A DNA stretch of 64,000 bases from Myxococcota bacterium (GCA_039030515.1 JBCCEA010000007.1:32001-96000); one strand, 5' to 3'; shown: positions 46,968 through 58,192, numbered from the stretch's first letter. The notes: generated by a model from the sequence alone, not told the origin. Numbers and translations: made by a program.

Positions 46968-48068
46968 TCACTGGGTCGTTTCGAGTCCAGAGATCCACAA
47001 AAAGAGGTTTGTGCGTCCGTCGGCATCGACGATTTCTGAGCCGAGAGGAGGCATCTGATCCTCTCCGCGGATCCCGGTCCGTAAGTACAGCGTACTGATA
47101 TCGGGTCTCCTCGGCACAATGCGTTGGTTCGCCTCGATGCTGCCGTCTACGAGGGTTCGCCATTCGCTGTCGACCTCGATGGCGGTGAGATAGGCTGGCG
47201 CTTGCTGCTCCGTAGCCAAGCCGACCGGTACCCAAAGCCGTAGACCCTCTGGAGCGCTTTCGTCCGCGCTGTGGCAGTGCCCACAGTTGGCGTGCAAATA
47301 GCCCAGAGCTTGTTGCGTATGTTCCATGCCTGGAATCGCGGCAAGTTCAGTAGGTATGTCGTGTGAGAGCATTCCGAGATCACGAAGGTCCTGCAGCGTC
47401 GTTTCGCTTCGGTCGTGATTCAACTGAACCGCTCCAAACCCGAGCACCATATCCCTTGGCCCGTATTCGGAGTGACACTCAACGCACTGAGCGAGTGACG
47501 GGATGTCGTGGGGTGTACCGAGGGCGTTCTCCTCACCGCCGAAAGGAACTTCGTTTGCTTCAGACGGGCCGTCCCAACGATAGGTCCGAAAGTCCCAGTG
47601 ATTGACCCCAGTGCCCGAAGTTGTTTTCTCGAAATAGCGTGTCTCGACTCGGGCGCCTTGATAGGAGAAGGTTTTCCAAATCCGGGTGCCGACCGGAAAG
47701 ACCCAATGATCTGCTTCTCTAGTATCGATTTGTGAGCCCTCGGGAAAAGAAATGAACCGCTCTTTTCCGGTACCGTCACTCCAAAGCCAGAAACGCGGGC
47801 TGTAGGCCAGAATCGACGGATTGAGGACGGAGCAGTCGGCGTCGATATACAGGTCTGGAGGACCGTTACAGAAGTCGCCCGCGGCATCCTCGGACGACGA
47901 ATCCACATTGGGTTCCTGCGCATCGGCCACGTCCGCATCGAAGGTTGTGACCGCTCCATCTGCGGATATTTCGCGGCTAGGGCCCGTCGAATCCGAGCAG
48001 GAACTCGCGAGCACAACCCAGACAACGACGAATCGACGTCTCCCCACGCTCTCTAGGAATAAGGTCAT
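46968..48068 (-). CDS. di-heme c-type cytochrome lipoprotein (SO2930-like)
   Basis: LWSDG..KER, FPVGT..WKTF..VETR, CVECH, YLHANCGHCH, QMPPLG; lipobox-like LASS-C. Confidence 0.8.
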   Translation of the reverse strand: MTLFLESVGRRRFVVVWVVLASSCSDSTGPSREISADGAVTTFDADVADAQEPNVDSSSEDAAGDFCNGPPDLYIDADCSVLNPSILAYSPRFWLWSDGTGKERFISFPEGSQIDTREADHWVFPVGTRIWKTFSYQGARVETRYFEKTTSGTGVNHWDFRTYRWDGPSEANEVPFGGEENALGTPHDIPSLAQCVECHSEYGPRDMVLGFGAVQLNHDRSETTLQDLRDLGMLSHDIPTELAAIPGMEHTQQALGYLHANCGHCHSADESAPEGLRLWVPVGLATEQQAPAYLTAIEVDSEWRTLVDGSIEANQRIVPRRPDISTLYLRTGIRGEDQMPPLGSEIVDADGRTNLFLWISGLETTQ

Positions 48069-48167
48069 TTACCGTGCTCGTCCACTGTTGAATCGTGTAC
48101 TCTGAGAGAAAAGAACCGTTCACACTGTATACAGGTGTTGGGTTCCTTTGCTTCTTGGGACGGGGAA

Positions 48168-49058
48168 ATGAAGTCGATCTCAGTAGTTACGCTGTCGGTC
48201 GCTGCGGTACTGCCTTGGCAGTCCGCACGGGCACAGGAGGAACAGCCACGAACCCCGAGCGCGGCCGAGCAAACCCCCGCCGCCGAGGGTGCGGGACAAG
48301 GCCCGATCACCGTCGATCATCGGCAACACGACTCGCGATATGATTCTCAACTCGATCAGGCCGCTCGACTGACGTTTCTCGCGGGACGGGAAGCTTTTGT
48401 TCAGGGTGATTACGCTACGGCGCTGGATCGATTTCGCCAGGCATACGACCTCAGCCCGCGTCCTATGCTTCTTTTGAATATCGCCTCCTGTTTGGATCGG
48501 CTCCGTCGAGACGAAGAGACGGTCGCTGCGCTCCGTCAGTATCTAGCGTCCGAAGATGCGCAGCATGCGCCCAACCTGGCTGAGGTACAGGCGCGTATCG
48601 AGGTGCTGGAAGAGGCCATTGCTGCGCGCCGACGCGAAGAAGCGATGAATGAGGAGCTGTCTTTGGCCGCCGCTGTTGTGCCGCTGCCCGAGCAGGAGCC
48701 AGAGCAGGGCGGACTGAACCCGATAGTGTTCTATTCGGTTGCGGGTGCGGCGCTTGCATCAGGAGCCGTCTTGATTTGGTCGGGAATCGATGCGTCTAGC
48801 CGCAACGACGACTACGAGTCGTATGCTGCAGACCTGAGTAATACCGACAGTGCCCGTGCACGTTCTCTATATAACGACGTTGAGGATGCCGAGCGGCGCA
48901 CCAATATTTTAATAGGCGTCACCGCGGGACTCGGCGTGGCCGCTGGAGCGCTCGCTTTCTTTACTCGATGGGGCTCCCGCGAAACTCGTCCGGATACGGA
49001 TGCCGCCGTGGCGGTGACTGCCGAAGGGTTCGTCATTCGAGCAGGTCGCCGTTTTTAG
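48168..49058 (+). CDS. exported TPR protein with hydrophobic C-terminal region (myxobacterial TPR/PEGA-associated type)
   Basis: signal peptide ending ARA-Q; GDYATALDRFRQAYDLSPRPMLLLNIASCLDRL; C-terminal Gly/Ala-rich helices and terminal F. Confidence 0.75.
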   Translation: MKSISVVTLSVAAVLPWQSARAQEEQPRTPSAAEQTPAAEGAGQGPITVDHRQHDSRYDSQLDQAARLTFLAGREAFVQGDYATALDRFRQAYDLSPRPMLLLNIASCLDRLRRDEETVAALRQYLASEDAQHAPNLAEVQARIEVLEEAIAARRREEAMNEELSLAAAVVPLPEQEPEQGGLNPIVFYSVAGAALASGAVLIWSGIDASSRNDDYESYAADLSNTDSARARSLYNDVEDAERRTNILIGVTAGLGVAAGALAFFTRWGSRETRPDTDAAVAVTAEGFVIRAGRRF

Positions 49059-49067
49059 CCGGAAGGG

Positions 49068-50225
49068 ATGAACATGCTGATGAACAATGTGCGACATCGA
49101 CCTCCGGCGTATGCTCTGCTGCTTCTTTGTGCCGGATGTAGTCTCGCCAACGAGAGTTTGCTGGAGCGTTTCGAGGGAAGCTCAATCGATGCGGGGCCTG
49201 AGGACGCGCAACCGGTAACGAGCCAGGACTCCGGCGCCGCGGATGCGTCAGAAGGAGACGCGTCCGGATTCGATGCTGGACCTGCTCCAGCGGACCGTTG
49301 CGAAGACAACGGGGACACCTTGGTTCTCACCGACACCACTGAGGATCTGGTGATCGACACCCGCAACAATGTGAGCACGATATCGAGTCTCCCATCCTGC
49401 GGTCTGCAGGTGCCGGGTAGCGATGCGTTCGTTGCTGTCGACGTAGAGCCGGGCACCTACTGGCATTTTCATTTGCAAACCGATCCCACAGCCGCCAGCG
49501 ATAGCCGAGAGCGAGACCCAACGCTTTATCTATTGCGTGACGGGTGCAATGTGACTCAATGTCAGGCAGCGACAGTTGCGGACTATTGCGGCTCTACCAG
49601 CGACGAGGAGCACTTCGGCTTCGAGTTCCCACAGGCTGGAAGATGGTTTATCGGCATCGATGATCGCATCAGCGGAGGTGGGGTTTACCTCCTCGACGCG
49701 GTGCGCCCGGTCTGCGGTGACGGTCGTGTCGATCATGGAGAGGCCTGCGACGATGCGGTCGAAGATGGACCTGCATGTGAATCGTGTCGTCTGGTTCTCA
49801 ATGAGGACGACCGGTTTGCGACGGGCTTCAACTTTAATCTGCAGGAAGCGCACCTGGTGGAGCCATCGGCAATCGATGGGACGCCCAGCGTTGGTTTGAC
49901 CATCGGTGGACTGCTCGGTGGTTTGGCCGATTGTTCCTACCCGGCCTACTACGCGATTGCGGTAGAAGACGGGCGACCGAACCTTCGAGTCGAGTATCTG
50001 ATGCAGGGCGTCGACGCATGCGATGCAGATGGTGAGGCTCAGGACGTGACCATGGTTCTCGAAACTCTGGGTGGCGGGCAGCCGGACGCGAACATCACCT
50101 CAGGGGCTTGCCCAACGGTCCAAGCGCGATTGAGCGAAGGCTTATACTTCATAAGCATTGTCGATGATCGCGAGGATCGGAGTCGTGTTGTTCGCTACGA
50201 AGTCCGTTTCACCCTGAGTCCCTGA
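49068..50225 (+). CDS. Cys-rich lipoprotein with PPC-like beta domains and one myxobacterial disulfide (DUF4215-like) repeat
   Basis: lipobox LCAG-C; DPTLYLL, GRWFIGID; CGDGRVDHGEACDD. Confidence 0.7.
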   Translation: MNMLMNNVRHRPPAYALLLLCAGCSLANESLLERFEGSSIDAGPEDAQPVTSQDSGAADASEGDASGFDAGPAPADRCEDNGDTLVLTDTTEDLVIDTRNNVSTISSLPSCGLQVPGSDAFVAVDVEPGTYWHFHLQTDPTAASDSRERDPTLYLLRDGCNVTQCQAATVADYCGSTSDEEHFGFEFPQAGRWFIGIDDRISGGGVYLLDAVRPVCGDGRVDHGEACDDAVEDGPACESCRLVLNEDDRFATGFNFNLQEAHLVEPSAIDGTPSVGLTIGGLLGGLADCSYPAYYAIAVEDGRPNLRVEYLMQGVDACDADGEAQDVTMVLETLGGGQPDANITSGACPTVQARLSEGLYFISIVDDREDRSRVVRYEVRFTLSP

Positions 50226-50245
50226 CGGGCAGAGAGACCATCGCC

Positions 50246-52744
50246 ATGCTGCTCCTCATTCAGAGAACCAGTGGCTTGCTGCGCAGATCGGCAGGGAGCC
50301 TTTTATTCTTGGTGGTACTTTCGGTTCCGTATTCGACTCGAGCACACGAATTTTATACATCTAGAGTGCCAAATGCGGCAACTGCACTCTCATCCGATGG
50401 CTCGACCAAGCCTTGCATTACCTGCCACGACAACGTGGATGGTGGTGCAGGATGTACCTCGTCCGGAGGCGCGAGGCCGTGCCTCAACCCTTTTGGGGTA
50501 CAGTTTCGTGATGCAAGCTTTCTCTGGAGCAACGCGCTTTCGCAGCTTGACGCCGATGGGGACGGGTTTACCAACGGGCAAGAGCTGCAAGATGCGGAAG
50601 GGAACTGGATACCCGGTGACCATAGTCCCGGTGTAACGAACTACGTCACTCGGCCCGGCTTTGACGACTCCACTCCGGGGCAGATCGATGCGGATGGTGA
50701 TGGCTTTTGCTGGTTTGGGGAAGACCTAGACGGCAGCGGAAGCTGCGATGGCGTCACTGAAAACACCGGAGCGCTCGACTGCGACGACGGCGACGACAGC
50801 GTGAATAGCGGGGCGGTTGAGCTGTGCAGCAATGTGATCGACGACGACTGCAACGGGCTTACCACCCTTGAGGATCCTGCTTGCGAAGACGTGGTGGACC
50901 GGGATGGAGACGGCTTTTGCGTGCTCGGTCGAGACCTCAATGGTGACCGAGACTGTATCGACGGCAGCGGTGAGCAGACCTCAGACATCGATTGTGACGA
51001 TACGCGAATTACCGTGTTTCCGGGAAATCGAGAGAACTGTACTGATGGACAGGACAACGACTGTAACGGACTAATTGACGTAGCGGATACGCAATGCCGC
51101 AGCGATGTGGATGAGGACTCCGACGGGTTTTGTCCGTTGGGGGTTGACTTGAATGGCGATGGTGACTGCCTCGACGCTGGAGAACTCGACGATAGCGTTT
51201 TTTCGGATGGTTTCGATTGTGATGATCAGAATGCCGCTGCAAATCCAGATCAGACAGAAATCTGCGATGACTCGATCGACAATGACTGCGATGGAGATGC
51301 AAATTTTATCGACTCTGAATGCCAAGGTTTTTTCGATGCGGATGGAGATGGATTTTGTGTTTCCGGGATAGATCGCAACGGAGACGGTGACTGCATCGAT
51401 GAGCTCGAGGGGCTTGCCGACGGGGAACTCGGTGACTGCAACGATCTCGATCCACTCGTGGCACCCGGACGAGGTGAGGATGGAGACGCTTGCCGAGATT
51501 CGATCGACAACGACTGTGACGGCAGCATCAGTCTCGCGGATAGCGACTGTGCGGGGTATCTCGACACAGACGGTGATCGCTACTGCCTCGTTGGGTTCGA
51601 CGCAAACCTCGACGGTGACTGCGCCGACATCGATGAGGAAGGTGGCACTTTAGTAGACTGCGACGACTCACTGGCCTCCATATCCCCGGTCGCGGTTGAG
51701 ATTTGTACCGATGGACTCGACAACGACTGTGATGGAAGCACCGATGCAGCAGATCCGGGGGATCCCGATCCTGAGTCGGGGACGTTCCTAAATAGCTGCA
51801 CCGATTTTGCCGATCTCGATCGCGACGGTTACTGCGTTCAGGGTCGAGATCTTAACGCCGATTTCGATTGCGCAGACGAGGGAGAACTGGATGCGGCCGA
51901 AGGTCTGAGCGACAGCTTCCCTCTCGACCCAACGATAGGCCCGGGAGCCTTCGAACACTGTGGCGATGGGGTCGACAACGATCTCGATGGACTTGTCGAT
52001 CTCGAGAGCCCCTCATGTTCTCGGGACAGCGACGCCGACGGAGATGGGTTTTGCAGTATCGGACGCGACCTCAACGGCGACGGAGATTGCCTGGACAGCA
52101 GTGAAGACCCCTCGATGGACGAACTGCGCTTCGGAGATTTCGATTGCGACGATCGAGATGCCGAGGTCTATCCCGCAAACGACGCAGCCGGTCTCGAGAA
52201 TTGTTTTGATTTTGTGGACAACGACTGCGACACGCGCGTGGATCTCGACGACGCCGAGTGTAAGCGTTTCTTCGATGCAGATGGTGACGGATTCTGCCCC
52301 ACCGGAGTGGACGACAACGGAGATGGCGACTGCTTGGATGTTGCCGAGGATCGTTTTGGAGAAGACTGCTCCGACAATCCGCTCCTAGAGCCGCTGGCCG
52401 CTTCTATCAACATTCGTGCAAGAGAGATTTGCGACGACCTTATCGACAACGATTGCGACGGCGCTACCGATCTCGAGGACACCCAGTGCGACTGCATGAC
52501 GTTTTGTGATGATGGCGATCCGTGCACCATCGATGGCTGCAATGAAGCCAAGACTCTGTGCGCGTATCGTCCGGATCCCGCTTGCTTTGATGCCGGTGCG
52601 CCGCCTGTGCTTGATGGAGACGGCGGCACACCGGCTCGCTCCGCAGGTGGTGGATGTTATGTCGGGGGTAGCCCACGTCACACCCTCCTGATTTGGATCG
52701 TCGGATGTCTGGGCTGGCTCATCCTTCGCCGGAGGCGTCCATGA
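50246..52744 (+). CDS. surface protein: CxxCH/temptin-like head + 8 MopE-like Asp/Cys repeats + MYXO-CTERM-like anchor
   Basis: signal peptide; CITCH..LNPFG..DADGDGFTNGQEL; repeated DxDGDGFC..DCDD..EIC..DNDCDG; GGGC-hydrophobic-RRRR tail. Confidence 0.85.
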   Translation: MLLLIQRTSGLLRRSAGSLLFLVVLSVPYSTRAHEFYTSRVPNAATALSSDGSTKPCITCHDNVDGGAGCTSSGGARPCLNPFGVQFRDASFLWSNALSQLDADGDGFTNGQELQDAEGNWIPGDHSPGVTNYVTRPGFDDSTPGQIDADGDGFCWFGEDLDGSGSCDGVTENTGALDCDDGDDSVNSGAVELCSNVIDDDCNGLTTLEDPACEDVVDRDGDGFCVLGRDLNGDRDCIDGSGEQTSDIDCDDTRITVFPGNRENCTDGQDNDCNGLIDVADTQCRSDVDEDSDGFCPLGVDLNGDGDCLDAGELDDSVFSDGFDCDDQNAAANPDQTEICDDSIDNDCDGDANFIDSECQGFFDADGDGFCVSGIDRNGDGDCIDELEGLADGELGDCNDLDPLVAPGRGEDGDACRDSIDNDCDGSISLADSDCAGYLDTDGDRYCLVGFDANLDGDCADIDEEGGTLVDCDDSLASISPVAVEICTDGLDNDCDGSTDAADPGDPDPESGTFLNSCTDFADLDRDGYCVQGRDLNADFDCADEGELDAAEGLSDSFPLDPTIGPGAFEHCGDGVDNDLDGLVDLESPSCSRDSDADGDGFCSIGRDLNGDGDCLDSSEDPSMDELRFGDFDCDDRDAEVYPANDAAGLENCFDFVDNDCDTRVDLDDAECKRFFDADGDGFCPTGVDDNGDGDCLDVAEDRFGEDCSDNPLLEPLAASINIRAREICDDLIDNDCDGATDLEDTQCDCMTFCDDGDPCTIDGCNEAKTLCAYRPDPACFDAGAPPVLDGDGGTPARSAGGGCYVGGSPRHTLLIWIVGCLGWLILRRRRP

Positions 52745-55700
52745 TGCAGCCATGGATGCGTCTCGCTTTGGGGCTTTTGTTGCTGTTTGGCTGGGCTCCT
52801 TCCGCTCAGGCCTATCCCTACTACGGACACTACGGCTCGGGATCCAACCCGCCAGGCACCACAGATTTTGGAGTTGGAGCTCATTCGTCTGGATGCGAGA
52901 TGTGCCACACCAACACGGGAGGAGGTCTCTCGTGCGCTGGTGGCTTTTTCCCCTGTCTCAATCCCTTTGGCCTAGCCTATTTTTCGAATGGTGGCTGGAC
53001 CACCTCATTTGGGAATGCAGATTCCGATGCTGACGGTCAGTCCAATCTCTCCGAGGTGAACAATACATCTCGTCAGCCTGGATTTCCTCGCCAGGCGAGC
53101 TCCTGCGATCTCTCGGACTGCGCTTCCACGCTTTCTGATGACTGCTCGGGTGGCGGCACCGGGTTCAACATCACCTGTAATCGCATCCAGTATGCTTCAG
53201 GCAGGTACAGCTACACCTATAGCTTCTCGTGCGATAATGCAGGTTACGATAGTGACTTTGCGTCAGACGAGAGCAGCTGGCTTTGCTCTGATATCAACGA
53301 GTGCTCGACGTCGAATCCTTGCGGTGAAGACAATACTTTCAGCAACAATGCTTGTTCGAACACTGCAGGAAGCTGGAGCTGTGACTGCAATGCTGGCTAT
53401 ACAGAATTTGGATCCGTAGCGGCGCGAACCAACGGCTGCAGTAGTAACAACGAGTGCAGTACGGGGGATCCTTGTAGCGTCTCTGGGCTGGGTAACAATA
53501 TATGCACGGAACTGACGGGTTCCTACGATTGCTCTTGCGACTCGGGCTACAACCGAACCGGATCGATTACCGGTGTCAATCGGAAATGCCTCGATATCGA
53601 TGAATGCTCCGCGAACAATTACTGCGGTGAAGACTATTCTGATAGCGATACGAGCTGCGTGAATCAAACGGGAGGATTTTCCTGTGAGTGCGGCGTCAAT
53701 GAAGGGTTTACCGCTGCCGGTTCAGGCAACCTCGGTCAGAGGTGTAACGATATCAACGAATGCAACGAAGAAAACCACTGTCGCGAAGATGACTTCTCGA
53801 GCGTCAACAGCTGCAGCAACACCAGCGGCGGCTACCGATGCTCCTGCGGAGCGGGTTTTCAGCTTAGCGGTAGTGCCCCTCGAAGCCAGACTTGCCAGGA
53901 TATCGACGAGTGCGCGCAGAACAGCGGTCTTTGCGGTCGAACCGGAACCTTTGGTAGCGGCGCGAATGTCTGCACCAACGTGGATGGCGGTTATAGTTGC
54001 AGCTGCATTGCAGGATTTACCCACCAAAACAGCGGCGCTCCCGCGACAAATCGTAATCAAGACTGCATCCCCATCGATGAGTGCGTGAGTACTTCCGTAT
54101 GTGGACAAAATCTTGGCCCTGGTGGAACCAACACCTGCACCAACTTAGTTCAGGGGTACAGCTGCAGTTGTCAGTCACCACAGTTTTCAGCCACAGGTAG
54201 CGGCAGCTTTGATGGAGACTGCGTCGACGTAAACGAGTGCACCGACGGAGGCCCTTCTGACAACACATGTCATCAAGAGGACGGGTGGGGTAGCTGTACA
54301 AACTATACCGGTAGCGGTAGTGCCATCGGATACGGTTGCACATGTGGAGCAGGTTTTACGCGCATTAATGCTGGAACGACCTCCGAGGACTGCGCAGACA
54401 TCAACGAATGTACCGACGAGTCTGGAGCCGATACGAGCTGCAACGCGCATTTAGGTTATGGTTCGTGCAATAATACGACAGGTGGATACAGCTGTACGTG
54501 TGCCGATGGCTACGAGAGTTTTCTCGATGGAGGCGACCCAAGCTGTCGTAACGTCGATGAATGTAGCGACGAAGCTGGCGCGGATACGAGCTGTAACGCG
54601 CATTTGGGATTTGGGACCTGTACCGATACCGATGGTGGGTTTACGTGCAGCTGCGATACCGCAAACGGATACGCGTTTGATGCAGGCGCTCAGACCTGTG
54701 TGTTGGAAAACGAGTGTACAAATCCGGCCAACAACAACTGCGATGTGAATGCAACGTGCACGGATACGCCTACTGGATTTACGTGTTCATGCGATCAAGG
54801 TTGGACGGGTAGCGGCACAAGCTGCTCTAACGTCGATGAGTGTGCCGTAGCCACGCAGTGCGGTCAGAATCTCGGCGGCGGCGGGATCAATACCTGCATC
54901 GATACTAGCGGCGGGTTCACGTGTGTCTGCGGCCCTGGTTTTTCGGCTCAAGGCTCTGGCTTTACCGCGACCTGTGTGAATCAGAACGAATGCAGCGATA
55001 CGCCAGGCATTTGCGGGGCAGGCTCCTGTACTGATCTTGAGGGCTCTTACTCCTGCAATTGTCCCGAGGGATACTCATTTTCAGGCGGCACGTGCCAAAA
55101 TATCGATGAATGCGGCAATTCCAGCACGTGCGGTCAAGACCTCGGTGCGCCAGGCACCAACACCTGTACCGATCTGACTCCTGGGTACAGTTGCGTTTGC
55201 GACTCCAGCGGATACGACCTGAGCGGCTCTGGCTTCTCTGCTGCCTGCATCGACCGTGATGAATGTGCACAGACCAATCCGTGCAGCGTAGGATCATGCG
55301 ACAACTCAGTCGGCGGGTACTCCTGCAATTGCCCCTCTGGATATATCTTCCAAAATGGAACCTGCGAGGACGTGGACGAATGTGTGTTGTCGCCCTGCGG
55401 CTCTAACGCGACGGGCTGCAACAATATCGGCGGCAGCTATGAATGTGCTTGTGCCACCGGATACGCCGCCCCAGCTGCGGGAGGTAGCTGCGCGGATATC
55501 GATGAGTGCGTGGTGAGCGCGCCGTGTGGTTCGAACTCTTCTTCGTGCAGCAATCGTGACGGTACATACTCTTGCGCGTGCAGTGCGGGTTACTCCGCTC
55601 CCTCTCAAGGAGGCACGTGTGCCAACATCAATGAGTGTGCCGAGACTCCTGATATCTGCGGAGTGGGTAGCTGCGAAGATGATGAGGGCAGCTACAGCTG

Positions 55701-57288
55701 CAGCTGTCCTGAGGGATACAGTGCGCCGGTAACAGCAGGTACCTGTGAGAACGTCGATGAATGCACCGAGACCCCTGGAGTCTGCGGCAGCAATGCAAGC
55801 CGCTGCAGCGACTCCGAAGGCAGTTACGTCTGTGAGTGCGAAAGCGGTTATGAAGCGCCGGCCAGTGGCGGCAGCTGCATCAATATCGACGAATGCAGCA
55901 TCGGTACACCATGCGATCCAGGTAACTGCAGCGATCTTGAAGGAACCTACAGCTGCAGCTGCCCCGAGGGCTTTGCGGTGGCTTCGGGTACATCGGGTCC
56001 TTTCTGCGTCGATATCGACGAGTGTCTGGGAGATCCCTGCGGTCCCGGGACATGTTTTGAGACAGGCGTTGGCGGTGATTCACGTGGCTTTGGAGATTAT
56101 TTCTGCGTGTGTAACGCAGGATATGTGGAGAGCGCAGAGTTGAACGGTGTCTGTCAAAATGTCGATGAATGCCTCACTCCCGAGGTAAGCCTGTGCCCTA
56201 GCAACTCGACCTGCACGGATACGGACGGGCGTTGGGAGTGTCCTTGCGATATCGGTTTCGAATACGATGTGTCCGGGACGATCTGCATCAACGTCGACGA
56301 GTGCGCCTTAGGGCTCGATGATTGCGCTCCGGTTACGGCTACCTGCTCGGACCTCACGCCGGTTCAGGCAGACCCAAGAAGATGGGAGTGCAGCTGCAAC
56401 GTCGGGTATCAGGGATCTGGAGTGACCTGCGTCGACATAGATGAATGCGCGATCGGAACGCCGTGCGGCGAAAATGAGCTCTGCGTCAATCGCTTAAGTG
56501 GAGAGCAGCCCGATTGTCGGTGCCGGCCGGGGTACACCCGCAATGAGGAGTCGCTTCTGTGTGAACTTAGCTGCGGTGATGGAACGCTGGGACAGACCGA
56601 GGTTTGCGACGACGGAAACAGCGAGCCGGGTGACGGCTGTAGCGATGCATGTCTCATCGAGCCGGGTTACGTCTGCCTGACCCCGGGTGCTTCCTGCCTG
56701 CAGACTTGCGGAGACGGCGTCCTTCAGACTCACGAAGAATGTGACGACGGAGACGAGAACTCCGATACGGCCGCCGATGCCTGCCGTCTCAGTGGATGTG
56801 TGTTCGCGCGTTGTGGAGATGGGGTGATCGATACCGGTGAGGCCTGCGACGATGGTGATATGGAGACCGTCGAAGGCATGGCGATCAACTCAGACCGTGA
56901 TCCAGATGCCTGTCGCACCGATTGCTCCCTACCAAGATGTGGAGATGGCGTGGTCGATACCGGTGAGCTTTGCGATCCGGGGATCCTCGAAGATGAGGCC
57001 TGCACGAGTGAGGTCGCCTGCGGATTTGCGGTGCAGGAACCGCCGCCCGATGCATCTGCTGTAGCATTGGATGCGTCAAGCCCAGACGCGGGTTCATCGA
57101 CGCCCGCCTCTTCGGGAGGAGGCTGCGCGCTTGGAGGCCGGCCCCAATCGTCCATGCCTCGAACTTCTTTGCTGTGGCTGGTCCTTTGGACGCTCACCTG
57201 CTTGCGGCGCGCTAGAAAGTCAGCAGGCCGAAGTACCAGTCGACGAGCGGCGTTCCGAAGAACAGATACTCAAGAGCGGCAAGGCTGA
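52741..57288 (+). CDS. giant surface protein: CxxCH/temptin-like head + 23 calcium-binding EGF-like domains + 4 DUF4215-like repeats + MYXO-CTERM-like anchor
   Basis: signal ending AQA-Y; CEMCH..LNPFG..DSDADG; 23 x (D/N)x(D/N)EC..C..Cx(D/N)xxGx(Y/F)xCxCxxG(Y/F)..C; CGDG..E.CDDG; GGGC..LLWLVLWTLTCLRR; ATGA overlap with upstream gene. Confidence 0.9.
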   Translation: MMQPWMRLALGLLLLFGWAPSAQAYPYYGHYGSGSNPPGTTDFGVGAHSSGCEMCHTNTGGGLSCAGGFFPCLNPFGLAYFSNGGWTTSFGNADSDADGQSNLSEVNNTSRQPGFPRQASSCDLSDCASTLSDDCSGGGTGFNITCNRIQYASGRYSYTYSFSCDNAGYDSDFASDESSWLCSDINECSTSNPCGEDNTFSNNACSNTAGSWSCDCNAGYTEFGSVAARTNGCSSNNECSTGDPCSVSGLGNNICTELTGSYDCSCDSGYNRTGSITGVNRKCLDIDECSANNYCGEDYSDSDTSCVNQTGGFSCECGVNEGFTAAGSGNLGQRCNDINECNEENHCREDDFSSVNSCSNTSGGYRCSCGAGFQLSGSAPRSQTCQDIDECAQNSGLCGRTGTFGSGANVCTNVDGGYSCSCIAGFTHQNSGAPATNRNQDCIPIDECVSTSVCGQNLGPGGTNTCTNLVQGYSCSCQSPQFSATGSGSFDGDCVDVNECTDGGPSDNTCHQEDGWGSCTNYTGSGSAIGYGCTCGAGFTRINAGTTSEDCADINECTDESGADTSCNAHLGYGSCNNTTGGYSCTCADGYESFLDGGDPSCRNVDECSDEAGADTSCNAHLGFGTCTDTDGGFTCSCDTANGYAFDAGAQTCVLENECTNPANNNCDVNATCTDTPTGFTCSCDQGWTGSGTSCSNVDECAVATQCGQNLGGGGINTCIDTSGGFTCVCGPGFSAQGSGFTATCVNQNECSDTPGICGAGSCTDLEGSYSCNCPEGYSFSGGTCQNIDECGNSSTCGQDLGAPGTNTCTDLTPGYSCVCDSSGYDLSGSGFSAACIDRDECAQTNPCSVGSCDNSVGGYSCNCPSGYIFQNGTCEDVDECVLSPCGSNATGCNNIGGSYECACATGYAAPAAGGSCADIDECVVSAPCGSNSSSCSNRDGTYSCACSAGYSAPSQGGTCANINECAETPDICGVGSCEDDEGSYSCSCPEGYSAPVTAGTCENVDECTETPGVCGSNASRCSDSEGSYVCECESGYEAPASGGSCINIDECSIGTPCDPGNCSDLEGTYSCSCPEGFAVASGTSGPFCVDIDECLGDPCGPGTCFETGVGGDSRGFGDYFCVCNAGYVESAELNGVCQNVDECLTPEVSLCPSNSTCTDTDGRWECPCDIGFEYDVSGTICINVDECALGLDDCAPVTATCSDLTPVQADPRRWECSCNVGYQGSGVTCVDIDECAIGTPCGENELCVNRLSGEQPDCRCRPGYTRNEESLLCELSCGDGTLGQTEVCDDGNSEPGDGCSDACLIEPGYVCLTPGASCLQTCGDGVLQTHEECDDGDENSDTAADACRLSGCVFARCGDGVIDTGEACDDGDMETVEGMAINSDRDPDACRTDCSLPRCGDGVVDTGELCDPGILEDEACTSEVACGFAVQEPPPDASAVALDASSPDAGSSTPASSGGGCALGGRPQSSMPRTSLLWLVLWTLTCLRRARKSAGRSTSRRAAFRRTDTQERQG

Positions 57289-58192
57289 GGAAGGGACCGA
57301 ACTTGATTTTGAGCCGACCGAACTCAGCAGGTCGGCTCTCCTCCAGAGGATCCTCTGAGCTGTAGTCGTTTCCGGCTGAACTGTTCTCCGCTTCAGTCAG
57401 CGTCTCTTTTTGCGCCTCGGACTCCGGCATAACGCCGGTGGTCTCCGCCGATTCGGATTCGCCTTGGAGCACGCCTAGCTTGCCCGCTGCGCCGAGCAGC
57501 ACTGTCGCGACAACGCCCTGCATGGACCCGATAGCGAGGGTGAAAAGCACGCCTTCCCATCCTAGGAATGCGCCGATCATCATGAGGAGTTTCGCATCTC
57601 CTTCCCCCATGCCGCGCCTGCCGGTCGCGAGTTCATACGCCCAGACAAAGGGAACTTGGATGATGAGAAAGCCGACTCCCGCGCCCACCGCAGCAGCTTC
57701 CGCGCCGGGCATGTGCCGGACGGTGGCGGTGACGAGTCCGAGGGCACAGCCGGGCAAGCTGATCTCGTCGGGGATGATCATGTGCTCGAGATCGGTAAAG
57801 GTGGCGATGAGCAAGGCTCCCGCAAACGAGAACCAAAGTCCGGTTTGCAAAAGCCCGTCTGAGGCTGGAGTGAACTGAGGCGCTCGAACAAAAAACACCT
57901 CCGCCACCGCCAAGCACAAGAGGCCGGCGAGGACCTCGACAAAAACGTAGCGAGGTGAAATCCGTGCGCTGCAGCAGGCGGCTCGGCCGCGCAGCACACA
58001 CCAGCTCACGATCGGGATGTTCTGCCAAGGGGGGATCTGCACGCCGCAGCTGGGGCAACGACTCGAGGGGAAGACTACCGACTCCTCGAATGGAAGCCGG
58101 TGAATCGCGACGTTGAAAAAGCTTCCCCACAGGCTACCGAATAAAAAGGCAAGCAAACGTACGGCGAAGGGTGTCAGATCTGAGGTGGACAC
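57212..58192 (-). CDS. pilD: prepilin peptidase / N-methyltransferase
   Basis: GSFFNVAIHRLP, SRCPSC, NIPIVSW..LRGR, TDLEHMIIPD, GMGEGDAKL, FGPFL; GTG 58192. Confidence 0.93.
   Translation of the reverse strand: MSTSDLTPFAVRLLAFLFGSLWGSFFNVAIHRLPFEESVVFPSSRCPSCGVQIPPWQNIPIVSWCVLRGRAACCSARISPRYVFVEVLAGLLCLAVAEVFFVRAPQFTPASDGLLQTGLWFSFAGALLIATFTDLEHMIIPDEISLPGCALGLVTATVRHMPGAEAAAVGAGVGFLIIQVPFVWAYELATGRRGMGEGDAKLLMMIGAFLGWEGVLFTLAIGSMQGVVATVLLGAAGKLGVLQGESESAETTGVMPESEAQKETLTEAENSSAGNDYSSEDPLEESRPAEFGRLKIKFGPFLSLAALEYLFFGTPLVDWYFGLLTF

What the first reader, a model, noticed from the sequence alone, without database searches (positions are those of the whole stretch)
53290..56562. 23 tandem eukaryote-type calcium-binding EGF domains (fibrillin/Notch-like array) in a bacterial gene
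Seen: I count 23 consecutive six-Cys units beginning (D/N)x(D/N)EC. Most carry Cx(D/N)xxxx(Y/F/W)xCxC, e.g. DVDECVLSPCGSNATGCNNIGGSYECACATGY. The units have diverged at DNA level but show sub-families (units 8/9 ADTSCNAHLG; 6/11/13 CGQ(N/D)LG; 12/17 TP.ICG.GSC), which points to internal expansion. The gene is intronless, has a bacterial signal and anchor, and is coupled to a bacterial operon. Known: cbEGF arrays form rigid Ca2+-dependent rods in metazoan matrix proteins, and this motif is the Asp/Asn beta-hydroxylation consensus. EGF-like domains do occur in myxobacteria, but an array this long capped by a CxxCH domain is unusual. About 69 disulfides would be needed in the array alone.
Basis: partly seen in the sequence, partly recalled or inferred. 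Interest (0 to 1): 0.8.

Follow-up and report, generated by a model that had tools for sequence, protein, structure and literature searches.

The report
Myxobacterial surface stalk of 23 cbEGFs
A marine myxobacterium-type genome encodes an intact secreted protein whose long stalk is built of 23 calcium-binding EGF domains like those of animal fibrillin and Notch, but such arrays prove to be common in this bacterial phylum, so it is a good example of an unstudied family, not a one-off.

Summary
Window 52741-57288 (+) is one open gene of 1515 aa. Residues 184-1274 (53290-56562) are exactly 23 six-Cys units (138 Cys) joined by one-residue linkers. All 23 hit Pfam EGF_CA, 15 above the curated cut-off. 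20 carry the N-terminal Ca2+ motif and 18 the Cx(D/N)xxxx(F/Y/W)xCxC motif.

The gene is bacterial. It has a Sec signal, a GGAGG site and an ATGA overlap with the upstream gene. Contigs from other samples bridge both gene ends.

The claim that it is unusual does not hold:
- EGF_CA occurs in 123 of 301 sampled genomes of the phylum.
- Relatives carry 27 and 21 contiguous units.
- Another genus has a colinear 23-unit homologue at 42% identity.
- The same architecture recurs in several Myxococcota records, often in a conserved locus.

That architecture is a Temptin_C-type CxxCH/EF-loop N-domain, a cbEGF array, four myxobacterial Cys-rich repeats and a Cys/TM/Arg tail.

Best reading: a cell-surface protein, sorted like TraA, whose Ca2+-stiffened cbEGF rod holds the N-terminal module far from the cell. 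No AspH-type hydroxylase gene was found. The function of the tip is open, and covalent haem binding is possible.

The parts
52731..52735 (+). GGAGG ribosome-binding site, 5 nt before the ATG
   Evidence: Read directly.
52741..57288 (+). Coding sequence of the 1515-aa protein (stop included). The ATG overlaps the TGA of the upstream gene (ATGA).
   Evidence: An identical 1515-aa protein, P0002, is in the protein collection.
52741..52812 (+). Sec signal peptide MMQPW...APSAQA, with cleavage predicted before YPYY
   Evidence: Inference from the sequence and from the aligned homologues, which all have A-x-A followed by [YF]P.
52813..53115 (+). N-terminal Temptin_C-type module: CEMCH at 52894-52908, and the EF-hand-like loop DSDADGQSNLSE at 53020-53055
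   Evidence: Pfam Temptin_C scores 22-24 bits, below the cut-off of 27. 31 of the 35 aligned sequences (this one included) hit Temptin_C. C, C, H, D, D, D, G, N and E are invariant in 35 of 35. A profile of the alignment hits haem sites of reaction-centre cytochromes and the calmodulin loop.
53116..53289 (+). Cys-containing segment of unknown fold between the N-module and the array
   Evidence: No Pfam hit. Low confidence in the model.
53290..56562 (+). 23 tandem cbEGF units with one-residue linkers; unit 10 (54703-54825) is closer to plain EGF/EGF_3
56563..57027 (+). Four myxobacterial Cys-rich acidic repeats (TIGR02232 / DUF4215), the repeat type named after Myxococcus cysteine-rich repeats
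   Evidence: TIGR02232 scores 71.7 bits with 4 stretches. DUF4215 has 4 stretches. CG[DN]G starts lie at residues 1278, 1323, 1358 and 1400.
57028..57114 (+). Pro/Ser/Ala/Asp-rich low-complexity linker
   Evidence: Read directly.
57115..57219 (+). MYXO-CTERM-like tripartite tail: GGGCALGG, a 13-residue hydrophobic stretch, then RRARK
   Evidence: Pattern read directly. The TIGR03901 HMM does not hit it. Homologues end in GCGC/GGGC...RRRR tails.
57220..57288 (+). 22-residue basic extension (plus the stop codon) beyond the Arg cluster. Most of it (57220-57288 against 57212-57288) overlaps the 3' end of the convergent prepilin-peptidase ORF.
50246..52744 (+). Upstream paralogous-design gene: the same N-module (Temptin_C 51.5 bits), 8 MopE-type metal-binding repeats and a GGGCYVGG...RRRRP tail
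46968..50225 (.). Conserved locus partners: SO2930-family dihaem cytochrome c (46968-48068, minus strand), TPR protein (48135-49058, plus strand) and a PPC-like 385-aa protein (49068-50225, plus strand)

Best explanation
The gene encodes a cell-envelope surface protein of a marine Myxococcota-type bacterium.

Proposed route:
- It is exported by Sec and oxidised in the periplasm to about 69 disulfides in the array.
- It is held in the inner membrane by its C-terminal hydrophobic helix.
[quoted passage not shown] This route has been shown for TraA in Myxococcus xanthus.

On the surface the four Cys-rich repeats and the 23 cbEGF domains form a Ca2+-stiffened rod. If each domain adds about 3 nm, the rod is about 60-70 nm long; that per-domain figure is recalled from fibrillin work and comes from no call. 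The rod holds the small N-terminal CxxCH/EF-loop (Temptin_C-type) module away from the cell, where it binds a ligand, surface or metal cofactor. The cbEGF array is therefore a spacer or stalk, not a signalling or matrix-fibre unit.

Shown here: domain identities, architecture, conservation, synteny, and the presence of the sorting machinery genes.
Inferred: surface location, Ca2+ binding, rod shape and the role of the tip.
For: Domain identities:
- cbEGF. Sequence matches to solved cbEGF pairs of fibrillin-1 (1lmj 6.6e-13, 1emn), Notch-1 and NELL2.
- The one-residue linkers and intact Ca2+ motifs in 16-20 of 23 units are the features of rigid cbEGF pairs. That link is established knowledge, not tested here.
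- TIGR02232 repeats score 71.7 bits.

Sorting route:
- The tail has a Cys-containing Gly motif, a hydrophobic stretch and RRARK.
- The homologues' tails are GCGC/GGGC...RRRR, and one homologue is named a MYXO-CTERM protein by its source.
- The own genome has a myxosortase core (111.8 bits, cut-off 100), a GspD secretin (512 bits, cut-off 351) and four DsbA-like Thioredoxin_4 domains.
- The TraA/MrtX/T2SS route comes from PMC11980579 (abstract and passages read).

Stalk-plus-tip modularity:
- The upstream gene has the same tip on a MopE-repeat stalk.
- P0084 has a similar cbEGF + Cys-rich-repeat + tail C-terminal half but a different N-terminal region.

Conservation:
- A 23-unit homologue in another genus is colinear, with 42% identity over 1360 columns.
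- The summed unit-to-unit score on the diagonal is 2445 against 1674 +/- 102 for shuffled pairings; 0 of 2000 shuffles reach it.

Not a chimera: contigs of other samples bridge both gene junctions.
Against: - The curated MYXO-CTERM model TIGR03901 does not hit the tail even at E <= 10. It finds only 2 sites in the whole genome, so either the model is insensitive in this lineage or the tail is something else.
- The hydrophobic stretch is only 13 residues, and 22 extra residues follow the Arg cluster.
- No DsbB or VKOR gene was found in the 85%-complete genome, so the oxidant for the many disulfides is not identified.
- The N-module scores below Pfam's cut-off. Its model is only moderately confident (pLDDT 64.7) and matched no solved fold, so what the tip does is unknown.
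- Positional unit correspondence with the 23-unit homologue is clean only in the C-terminal half. The diagonal is best for 7 of 23 units and in the top three for 12 of 23.
Confidence: 0.65

Rival explanations
1. The N-terminal module is a covalent haem c domain. The conserved locus (dihaem cytochrome c, TPR protein, PPC-like protein, MopE-stalk protein, cbEGF-stalk protein) would then be a cell-surface redox, haem or metal-handling system, with the cbEGF rod as its spacer.
For: - CxxCH is invariant in 35 of 35 aligned sequences from bacteria and archaea.
- The profile's best solved-structure matches are haem-binding sites of reaction-centre multihaem cytochromes (8ydm_C 5.4e-5, 5yq7_C 5.9e-5).
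- The neighbour's N-module weakly hits a dihaem family (NF041762, 25 bits, cut-off 300).
- An SO2930-family dihaem cytochrome c lies in the locus here and in L027, L028, L037, L043 and L057.
- Cytochrome c assembly genes are present.
Against: - Per-site scores to the cytochromes are weak (best stretch 15 bits).
- No conserved distal Met or His is evident in the invariant columns.
- No fold match.
- A single haem at the end of a rod tens of nm long cannot relay electrons to the cell.
- The animal temptins that give the family its name are described as secreted pheromone-type proteins in the paper titles I saw (listing only).
Confidence: 0.2
2. The protein is released and self-assembles into fibrillin-like extracellular microfibrils (a matrix protein), rather than being an anchored stalk.
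For: Long cbEGF arrays are the backbone of fibrillin. The top full-length hits are fibrillins at about 30% identity. The tail fails the MYXO-CTERM model. TraA without its tail is released by the T2SS (PMC11980579 passages).
Against: No TB (PF00683) or hybrid domains, and no other fibrillin-specific domain, in the Pfam scan. The similarity to fibrillin is confined to the repeated EGF units. The tail's design, and the canonical tails of the homologues, point to anchoring.
Confidence: 0.08
3. The array is eukaryotic DNA, from contamination, a chimeric contig or a recent transfer from an animal.
For: The best-scoring full-length hits are animal fibrillins and Notch-like proteins.
Against: - G+C is 0.56-0.60 across the gene, as in its flanks.
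- The gene has a bacterial signal, an RBS and a start/stop overlap.
- A 21.9-kb contig covers 48000-60000 without a difference. Contigs from other samples of the same study bridge 52065-52791 and 55768-58075.
- 22 of 23 units score higher to a unit of another bacterial protein than to any unit of the 5 eukaryotic proteins sampled.
- The family is spread over 96 of 209 sampled genera of the phylum.
Confidence: 0.02

Closest known systems
TraA of Myxococcus xanthus (MYXO-CTERM cell-surface receptor; PMC11980579, PMC3325183)
   Same: Design: Sec signal, a distal N-terminal functional domain, a disulfide-rich stalk and a C-terminal Cys/TM/Arg sorting tail. That TraA's stalk uses the TIGR02232/DUF4215 repeat type is recalled, not from a call. 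Myxosortase and T2SS genes are present in this genome.
   Different: The stalk here is mostly 23 cbEGF domains. The tip is a Temptin_C-type CxxCH module, whereas TraA's tip, as I recall it, is a PA14-like variable domain. The tail does not reach the TIGR03901 model.
CglD of M. xanthus (integrin-like gliding adhesin; preprint 10.1101/2023.10.19.562135, passages read)
   Same: A myxobacterial surface protein with EGF-like repeats in a Cys-rich stalk and with Ca2+-binding motifs.
   Different: CglD is an N-terminal lipoprotein with a VWA domain. Its EGF likeness is structural, and it has no tandem array of 23 cbEGFs.
Animal cbEGF arrays (fibrillin-1, Notch, LTBP, NELL)
   Same: The same domain family, the same one-residue linkage, and the same Ca2+ and Asp/Asn-aromatic consensus.
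   Different: No TB, hybrid, LNR or other partner domains. Bacterial signal and sorting tail. No AspH-type hydroxylase gene found. The units are nearer to other bacterial units than to eukaryotic ones.
Other Myxococcota cbEGF proteins in public data (P0060, P0080, P0085, P0109, L025, L028, L029, L037, L043; also P0067, P0091, P0101 and G037:C5)
   Same: The first group has the same full architecture, with 30-42% identity over long colinear stretches for the three checked by BLASTP (L025, L029, P0060), and often the same locus.
   Different: Unit numbers found by my parser differ (10 to 23; 27 in G037). P0091 and P0101 combine cbEGF arrays with RCC1 repeats, and P0101 also has an S8 protease.
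Temptin (Pfam PF24784 Temptin_C), a mollusc secreted protein
   Same: The N-module aligns to profile positions 39-75.
   Different: It scores below the cut-off here. The prokaryotic members carry an invariant CxxCH and sit at the N-terminus of surface-anchored proteins. Their function is unknown.

Membership tests
cbEGF (Pfam EGF_CA, PF07645) | Six Cys with the EGF spacing, including CxC (C4-x-C5) | tested here: met
   23 of 23 units; 138 Cys in 53290-56562.
cbEGF (Pfam EGF_CA, PF07645) | Profile score at or above the curated cut-off | tested here: met
   Whole protein 278 bits (cut-off 27), 16 stretches. Single units: 15 of 23 at >= 27 bits and 23 of 23 at E <= 0.15.
cbEGF (Pfam EGF_CA, PF07645) | Ca2+ ligand consensus (D/N)x(D/N)(E/Q) before C1, and Cx(D/N)xxxx(F/Y)xC | tested here: met
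   20 of 23 and 18 of 23 units; both in 16 of 23.
cbEGF (Pfam EGF_CA, PF07645) | Ca2+ actually bound; Asp/Asn beta-hydroxylated | not testable with these tools
   There is only indirect evidence. PF05118 was not found in the 85%-complete genome and does not go with EGF arrays in 41 genomes.
Fibrillin / LTBP | TB (8-Cys, PF00683) and hybrid domains interspersed in the array | tested here: not met
   Absent from the Pfam result for the whole protein.
MYXO-CTERM sorting signal (TIGR03901) | Match to the curated HMM | tested here: not met
   No hit for the last 75 or the last 241 residues at E <= 10. Only 2 sites in the whole genome at E <= 0.01.
MYXO-CTERM sorting signal (TIGR03901) | Tripartite design at the extreme C-terminus: a short motif with an invariant Cys, a hydrophobic helix and an Arg cluster | tested here: inconclusive
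   GGGCALGG, a 13-residue hydrophobic stretch and RRARK are present, but 22 further residues follow. Homologues have canonical tails.
MYXO-CTERM sorting signal (TIGR03901) | Cognate myxosortase and T2SS in the genome | tested here: met
   NF040914 scores 111.8 bits, cut-off 100. GspD scores 512 bits, cut-off 351.
Myxobacterial Cys-rich acidic repeat (TIGR02232 / DUF4215) | Profile score above the cut-off, in repeated copies | tested here: met
   71.7 bits (cut-off 20.8), 4 stretches. DUF4215 scores 57 bits, 4 stretches.
Temptin_C (PF24784) | Profile score at or above 27 bits | tested here: inconclusive
   22.3-24 bits here. The neighbour gene scores 51.5 bits. 31 of 35 aligned sequences hit at E <= 0.01.
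c-type cytochrome domain | CxxCH with covalent haem, and a cytochrome fold | tested here: inconclusive
   CxxCH is invariant in 35 of 35. There are weak profile hits to haem sites and no fold match. Haem attachment is not testable here.

The most novel reading that the evidence does not exclude
The CxxCH/EF-loop module at the N-terminus carries a covalently bound haem (and Ca2+). The conserved Myxococcota locus, made of a dihaem cytochrome c, a TPR protein, a PPC-like protein and two stalk proteins with the same tip (one on MopE repeats, one on 23 cbEGFs), would then be a so far undescribed cell-surface apparatus. It would display a haem or metal centre tens of nanometres from the cell on Ca2+-rigid rods, for sensing, capture or redox chemistry on particles or prey. 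The same tip module serves surface-anchored proteins in other phyla, including archaea.
Probability: 0.12. Interest if true: 0.8.

Novelty: new variant of a known kind. Interest (0 to 1): 0.45.

Why it matters
It shows that long, regular cbEGF arrays are not an animal speciality. They are a routine building block of secreted proteins in Myxococcota, found in 123 of 301 sampled genomes. Here they are conserved in length and unit order between genera and tied to the phylum's own surface-sorting system.

This gives matrix biologists a bacterial, intron-free, probably unhydroxylated and unglycosylated cbEGF rod for folding and mechanics studies. It gives myxobacterial biologists a conserved five-gene locus with two 'same tip, different stalk' proteins and a dihaem cytochrome, whose function is unknown.

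It also bears on where EGF modules arose, although my data cannot give the direction of transfer.

Tried and rejected
- Folding the N-module. With 6 sequences the model was useless (pLDDT 49). With 35 sequences it was moderate (64.7). Foldseek against the PDB gave nothing (best E 7.5), and VIA-align against 48,161 chains gave no Z >= 2. The fold stays unknown; this is not evidence of a new fold.
- NCBIfam on the whole protein gave 0 families at E <= 0.01. The repeats appeared only when the C-terminal part was scanned alone.
- Expression. No RNA holder was listed, so nothing can be said about expression.
- Literature. Four searches found nothing relevant: 'calcium-binding EGF' + myxobacteria (0 papers); EGF_CA + Myxococc (0); EGF-like domain + horizontal gene transfer + bacteria + eukaryote-like (0); EGF / myxobacteria / fibrillin (no listed paper holds 'myxobacteria'). 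'EGF-like' + Myxococc gave 7 papers, of which only the CglD preprint is relevant. 'temptin' + bacteria was swamped by 'tempting'. 'temptin' as a whole word gave mollusc papers only among the 15 listed (listing only).
- Earlier notes of this scan: nothing near this place.
- Strict one-to-one unit orthology with the 23-unit homologue is rejected as too strong. The diagonal is best for only 7 of 23 units.
- No complex prediction was run, because no binding claim is made.
- I did not build a unit phylogeny. Forty-residue units with six fixed Cys would not resolve it, so I used nearest-neighbour scores instead.

Full report
WHAT IS THERE

Window 52693-57288 (+) is a single open frame. The likely start is the ATG at 52741. 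It is preceded by GGAGG at 52731-52735 and overlaps the TGA of the upstream gene as ATGA. This gives a 1515-aa protein that is also present, letter for letter, in the public protein collection (P0002).

A Cys-anchored parse finds 23 units between 53290 and 56562:
- 138 Cys, six per unit.
- Every unit has the C4-x-C5 doublet.
- Exactly one residue lies between one unit's C6 and the next unit's first residue.
- 20 of 23 begin [DN]x[DN][EQ]C. The others begin SNNEC, PIDEC and LENEC.
- 18 of 23 carry Cx[DN]xxxx[FYW]xCxC, and 16 of 23 carry both motifs.

Pfam gives EGF_CA at 1.7e-84 for the whole protein. Scanned singly, all 23 units hit EGF_CA at E <= 0.15, 17 at E <= 0.001 and 15 at or above the 27-bit cut-off. 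Units 6, 7, 9, 13, 20 and 22 are the weak ones. Residues 854-1290 match solved cbEGF pairs of fibrillin-1 (1lmj, 1emn), Notch-1 and NELL2 by sequence.

THE REST OF THE PROTEIN

From N- to C-terminus:
- A Sec signal ending AQA, then YPYY.
- A module of about 100 residues with CEMCH and the loop DSDADGQSNLSE. It hits Pfam Temptin_C just below the cut-off (22-24 bits against 27).
- A 58-residue Cys-containing segment with no family.
- The cbEGF array.
- Four TIGR02232/DUF4215 Cys-rich acidic repeats (71.7 bits).
- A Pro/Ser/Ala linker.
- A tail made of GGGCALGG, a 13-residue hydrophobic stretch and RRARK, followed by 22 more basic residues. These extra residues lie where the frame runs into the 3' end of the convergent prepilin-peptidase ORF.

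The curated MYXO-CTERM model does not hit this tail. It also finds only two sites in the whole genome. Yet the genome encodes a myxosortase core above its cut-off and a GspD secretin.

IS IT BACTERIAL AND CORRECTLY ASSEMBLED?

G+C is even across the gene and its flanks. The neighbours are dnaE, a prepilin peptidase, proB and proA.

The stretch is held by four marine-metagenome runs of one study. One run, possibly the source, has a 21.9-kb contig covering 48000-60000 with no difference. In other samples a contig bridges 52065-52791, the upstream-gene/EGF-gene junction. Another bridges 55768-58075, from the array through the stop into the peptidase gene. A chimeric contig or eukaryotic contamination is therefore not supported.

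HOW COMMON IS IT?

All 16 EGF_CA matches in this 85%-complete, 4.08-Mb genome lie in this one gene. The domain is nevertheless common in the lineage:
- 24 of 41 genomes (this one and 40 relatives) have it, with up to 94 matches per genome.
- 123 of 301 evenly drawn genomes of the phylum (96 of 209 genera) have it, against 0 of 14 control genomes.
- Single frames in relatives hold 27 and 21 contiguous units (G037:C5), 23 (G019:C707) and 36 units in several runs (G026:C451).
- In the protein collection, Myxococcales-labelled proteins carry 20-28 units by my parser (P0067, P0091, P0101).

The whole architecture (Temptin_C-type N-module, cbEGF array, DUF4215 repeats, Cys/TM/Arg tail) recurs in P0060, P0080, P0085, P0109, L025, L028, L029, L037 and L043. 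Nor could I find any publication describing these arrays. The nearest is the CglD preprint, which notes EGF-like repeats in a Cys-rich stalk.

AGE OF THE ARRAY

The paralogous units are old:
- Best within-protein identity is 68% at protein level.
- Identity is 55-68% at DNA level for six pairs.
- There are no unit-scale tandem DNA repeats.

The 23-unit frame of G019, same family but another genus, aligns colinearly at 42% identity over 1360 columns. The summed diagonal unit score is 2445 against 1674 +/- 102 for shuffled pairings, and 0 of 2000 shuffles reach it. The pattern of long and short units matches from unit 10 on. However, the diagonal is the single best match for only 7 of 23 units and is in the top three for 12. 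The array as a whole predates the split of these genera, with some unit turnover in its N-terminal half.

For 22 of 23 units the best match in another bacterial protein outscores the best match in the five eukaryotic proteins sampled. That sample is small and was chosen from the top hits. The result argues against recent transfer from animals but cannot give the direction of any ancient transfer.

SURROUNDINGS

The upstream gene (50246-52744) has the same N-module (Temptin_C 51.5 bits), eight MopE-type repeats and a GGGCYVGG...RRRRP tail. It is the same tip on a different stalk. In two metagenomic ORFs the two genes are read as one frame (P0085, P0109).

The order here is dihaem cytochrome c of the SO2930 family (minus strand), TPR protein, PPC-like 385-aa protein, MopE-stalk protein, cbEGF-stalk protein. 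Elsewhere:
- L028 and L043 repeat this order.
- L037 and L057 have the same genes with the cytochrome and an OmpA-like gene between the two stalk genes.
- L025 has the MopE-to-EGF pair.
- L027 has the locus without the EGF gene.

THE N-MODULE

In an alignment of 35 sequences from Myxococcota, Chloroflexota, Nitrospirota, Hydrogenedentes and Methanosarcinales-type archaea, the residues C, C, H (CxxCH) and D, D, D, G, N, E (an EF-hand-like loop) are invariant. 31 of the 35 hit Temptin_C.

A profile of the alignment finds 5700 cluster representatives at E <= 0.001 among 1.84 billion, mostly with the module at the N-terminus. Some of these hits are DxDxDG-repeat proteins that match the loop part only. 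Against solved structures, by sequence, it hits haem sites of reaction-centre multihaem cytochromes (about 5e-5) and the calmodulin Ca2+ loop (2e-4 to 5e-3).

The archaeal members end in PGF...-type hydrophobic tails and the myxobacterial ones in Cys/Arg tails. The module is therefore a widespread cap of surface-anchored proteins. Its fold could not be matched. Haem binding is possible but unproven.

HYDROXYLATION AND DISULFIDES

PF05118 (Asp/Arg hydroxylase) was not found in this genome (completeness 85%). Across the 41 genomes it is present in 9: 4 of 24 with EGF arrays and 5 of 17 without. The genomes richest in EGF_CA (G037, G026, G010) lack it. The 'hydroxylation consensus' is therefore best read as the structural Ca2+-ligand and packing motif.

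DsbB and VKOR were not found. Four DsbA-like Thioredoxin_4 domains were found, three of them in one 681-aa frame.

MECHANISM PROPOSED

By analogy with TraA (PMC11980579, abstract and passages), the steps would be:
- Sec export.
- Oxidative folding.
- Retention by the C-terminal helix.
- Lipidation at the Cys and cleavage by myxosortase.
- T2SS transfer to the outer surface.

The Cys-rich repeats and 23 cbEGFs would then form a Ca2+-saturated rod in sea water, with the Temptin_C-type module at its distal end. The domain identities, architecture, conservation and the presence of the machinery genes are shown here. Location, Ca2+ binding, rigidity and tip function are inferred. I put this at 0.65.

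VERDICT

This is a real, well-formed and ancient bacterial cbEGF array. It belongs to a recurrent but undescribed Myxococcota family set in a conserved locus. It is a new variant of the known MYXO-CTERM 'tip-on-Cys-rich-stalk' kind of surface protein. It is not a unique eukaryote-like intrusion.

Noticed in passing
window 46968-57288: Conserved locus: SO2930-family dihaem cytochrome c (minus strand), TPR protein, PPC-like 385-aa protein, MopE-repeat stalk protein, cbEGF stalk protein. The same set occurs in L028 and L043. L037 and L057 have it in rearranged order, and L027 has it without the EGF gene.
   Followed up: partly
window 50246-52744: The upstream 832-aa protein has the same CxxCH/EF-loop N-module (Temptin_C 51.5 bits), eight MopE-type metal-binding repeats and a Cys/TM/RRRR tail. 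In the metagenomic ORFs P0085 and P0109 it is read in one frame with the cbEGF protein (1853 and 1846 aa).
   Followed up: partly
L034, L038, L046, L047, L050, L053, L055 (archaeal MAG records): The same small CxxCH + DSDGDG module sits at the N-terminus of short proteins (166-302 aa) from Methanosarcinales-type archaea. These end in PGF/E-type hydrophobic tails with basic ends, suggesting archaeosortase-type anchoring of the same cap.
   Followed up: no
G000:C21:23893-25716: One 681-aa open frame holds three tandem DsbA-like Thioredoxin_4 domains (about 82 bits each). No DsbB or VKOR was found in the 85%-complete genome.
   Followed up: no
window 57212-57288: The last 25 codons and the stop of the cbEGF gene overlap the 3' end of the convergent prepilin-peptidase (A24) ORF. 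The unusual basic extension behind the Arg cluster lies in this overlap.
   Followed up: no
L022 (G037:C5:152000-164000): Two neighbouring frames on one strand have 27 and 21 contiguous cbEGF units, the first ending in a GCGC...RRRR tail. This genome has 94 EGF_CA matches and no PF05118 match.
   Followed up: partly
P0091, P0101, L021 (G026:C451): Very large Myxococcales-labelled proteins combine 26-36 cbEGF units with RCC1 repeats, and P0101 also has an S8 protease domain. This is a different use of the same array.
   Followed up: no
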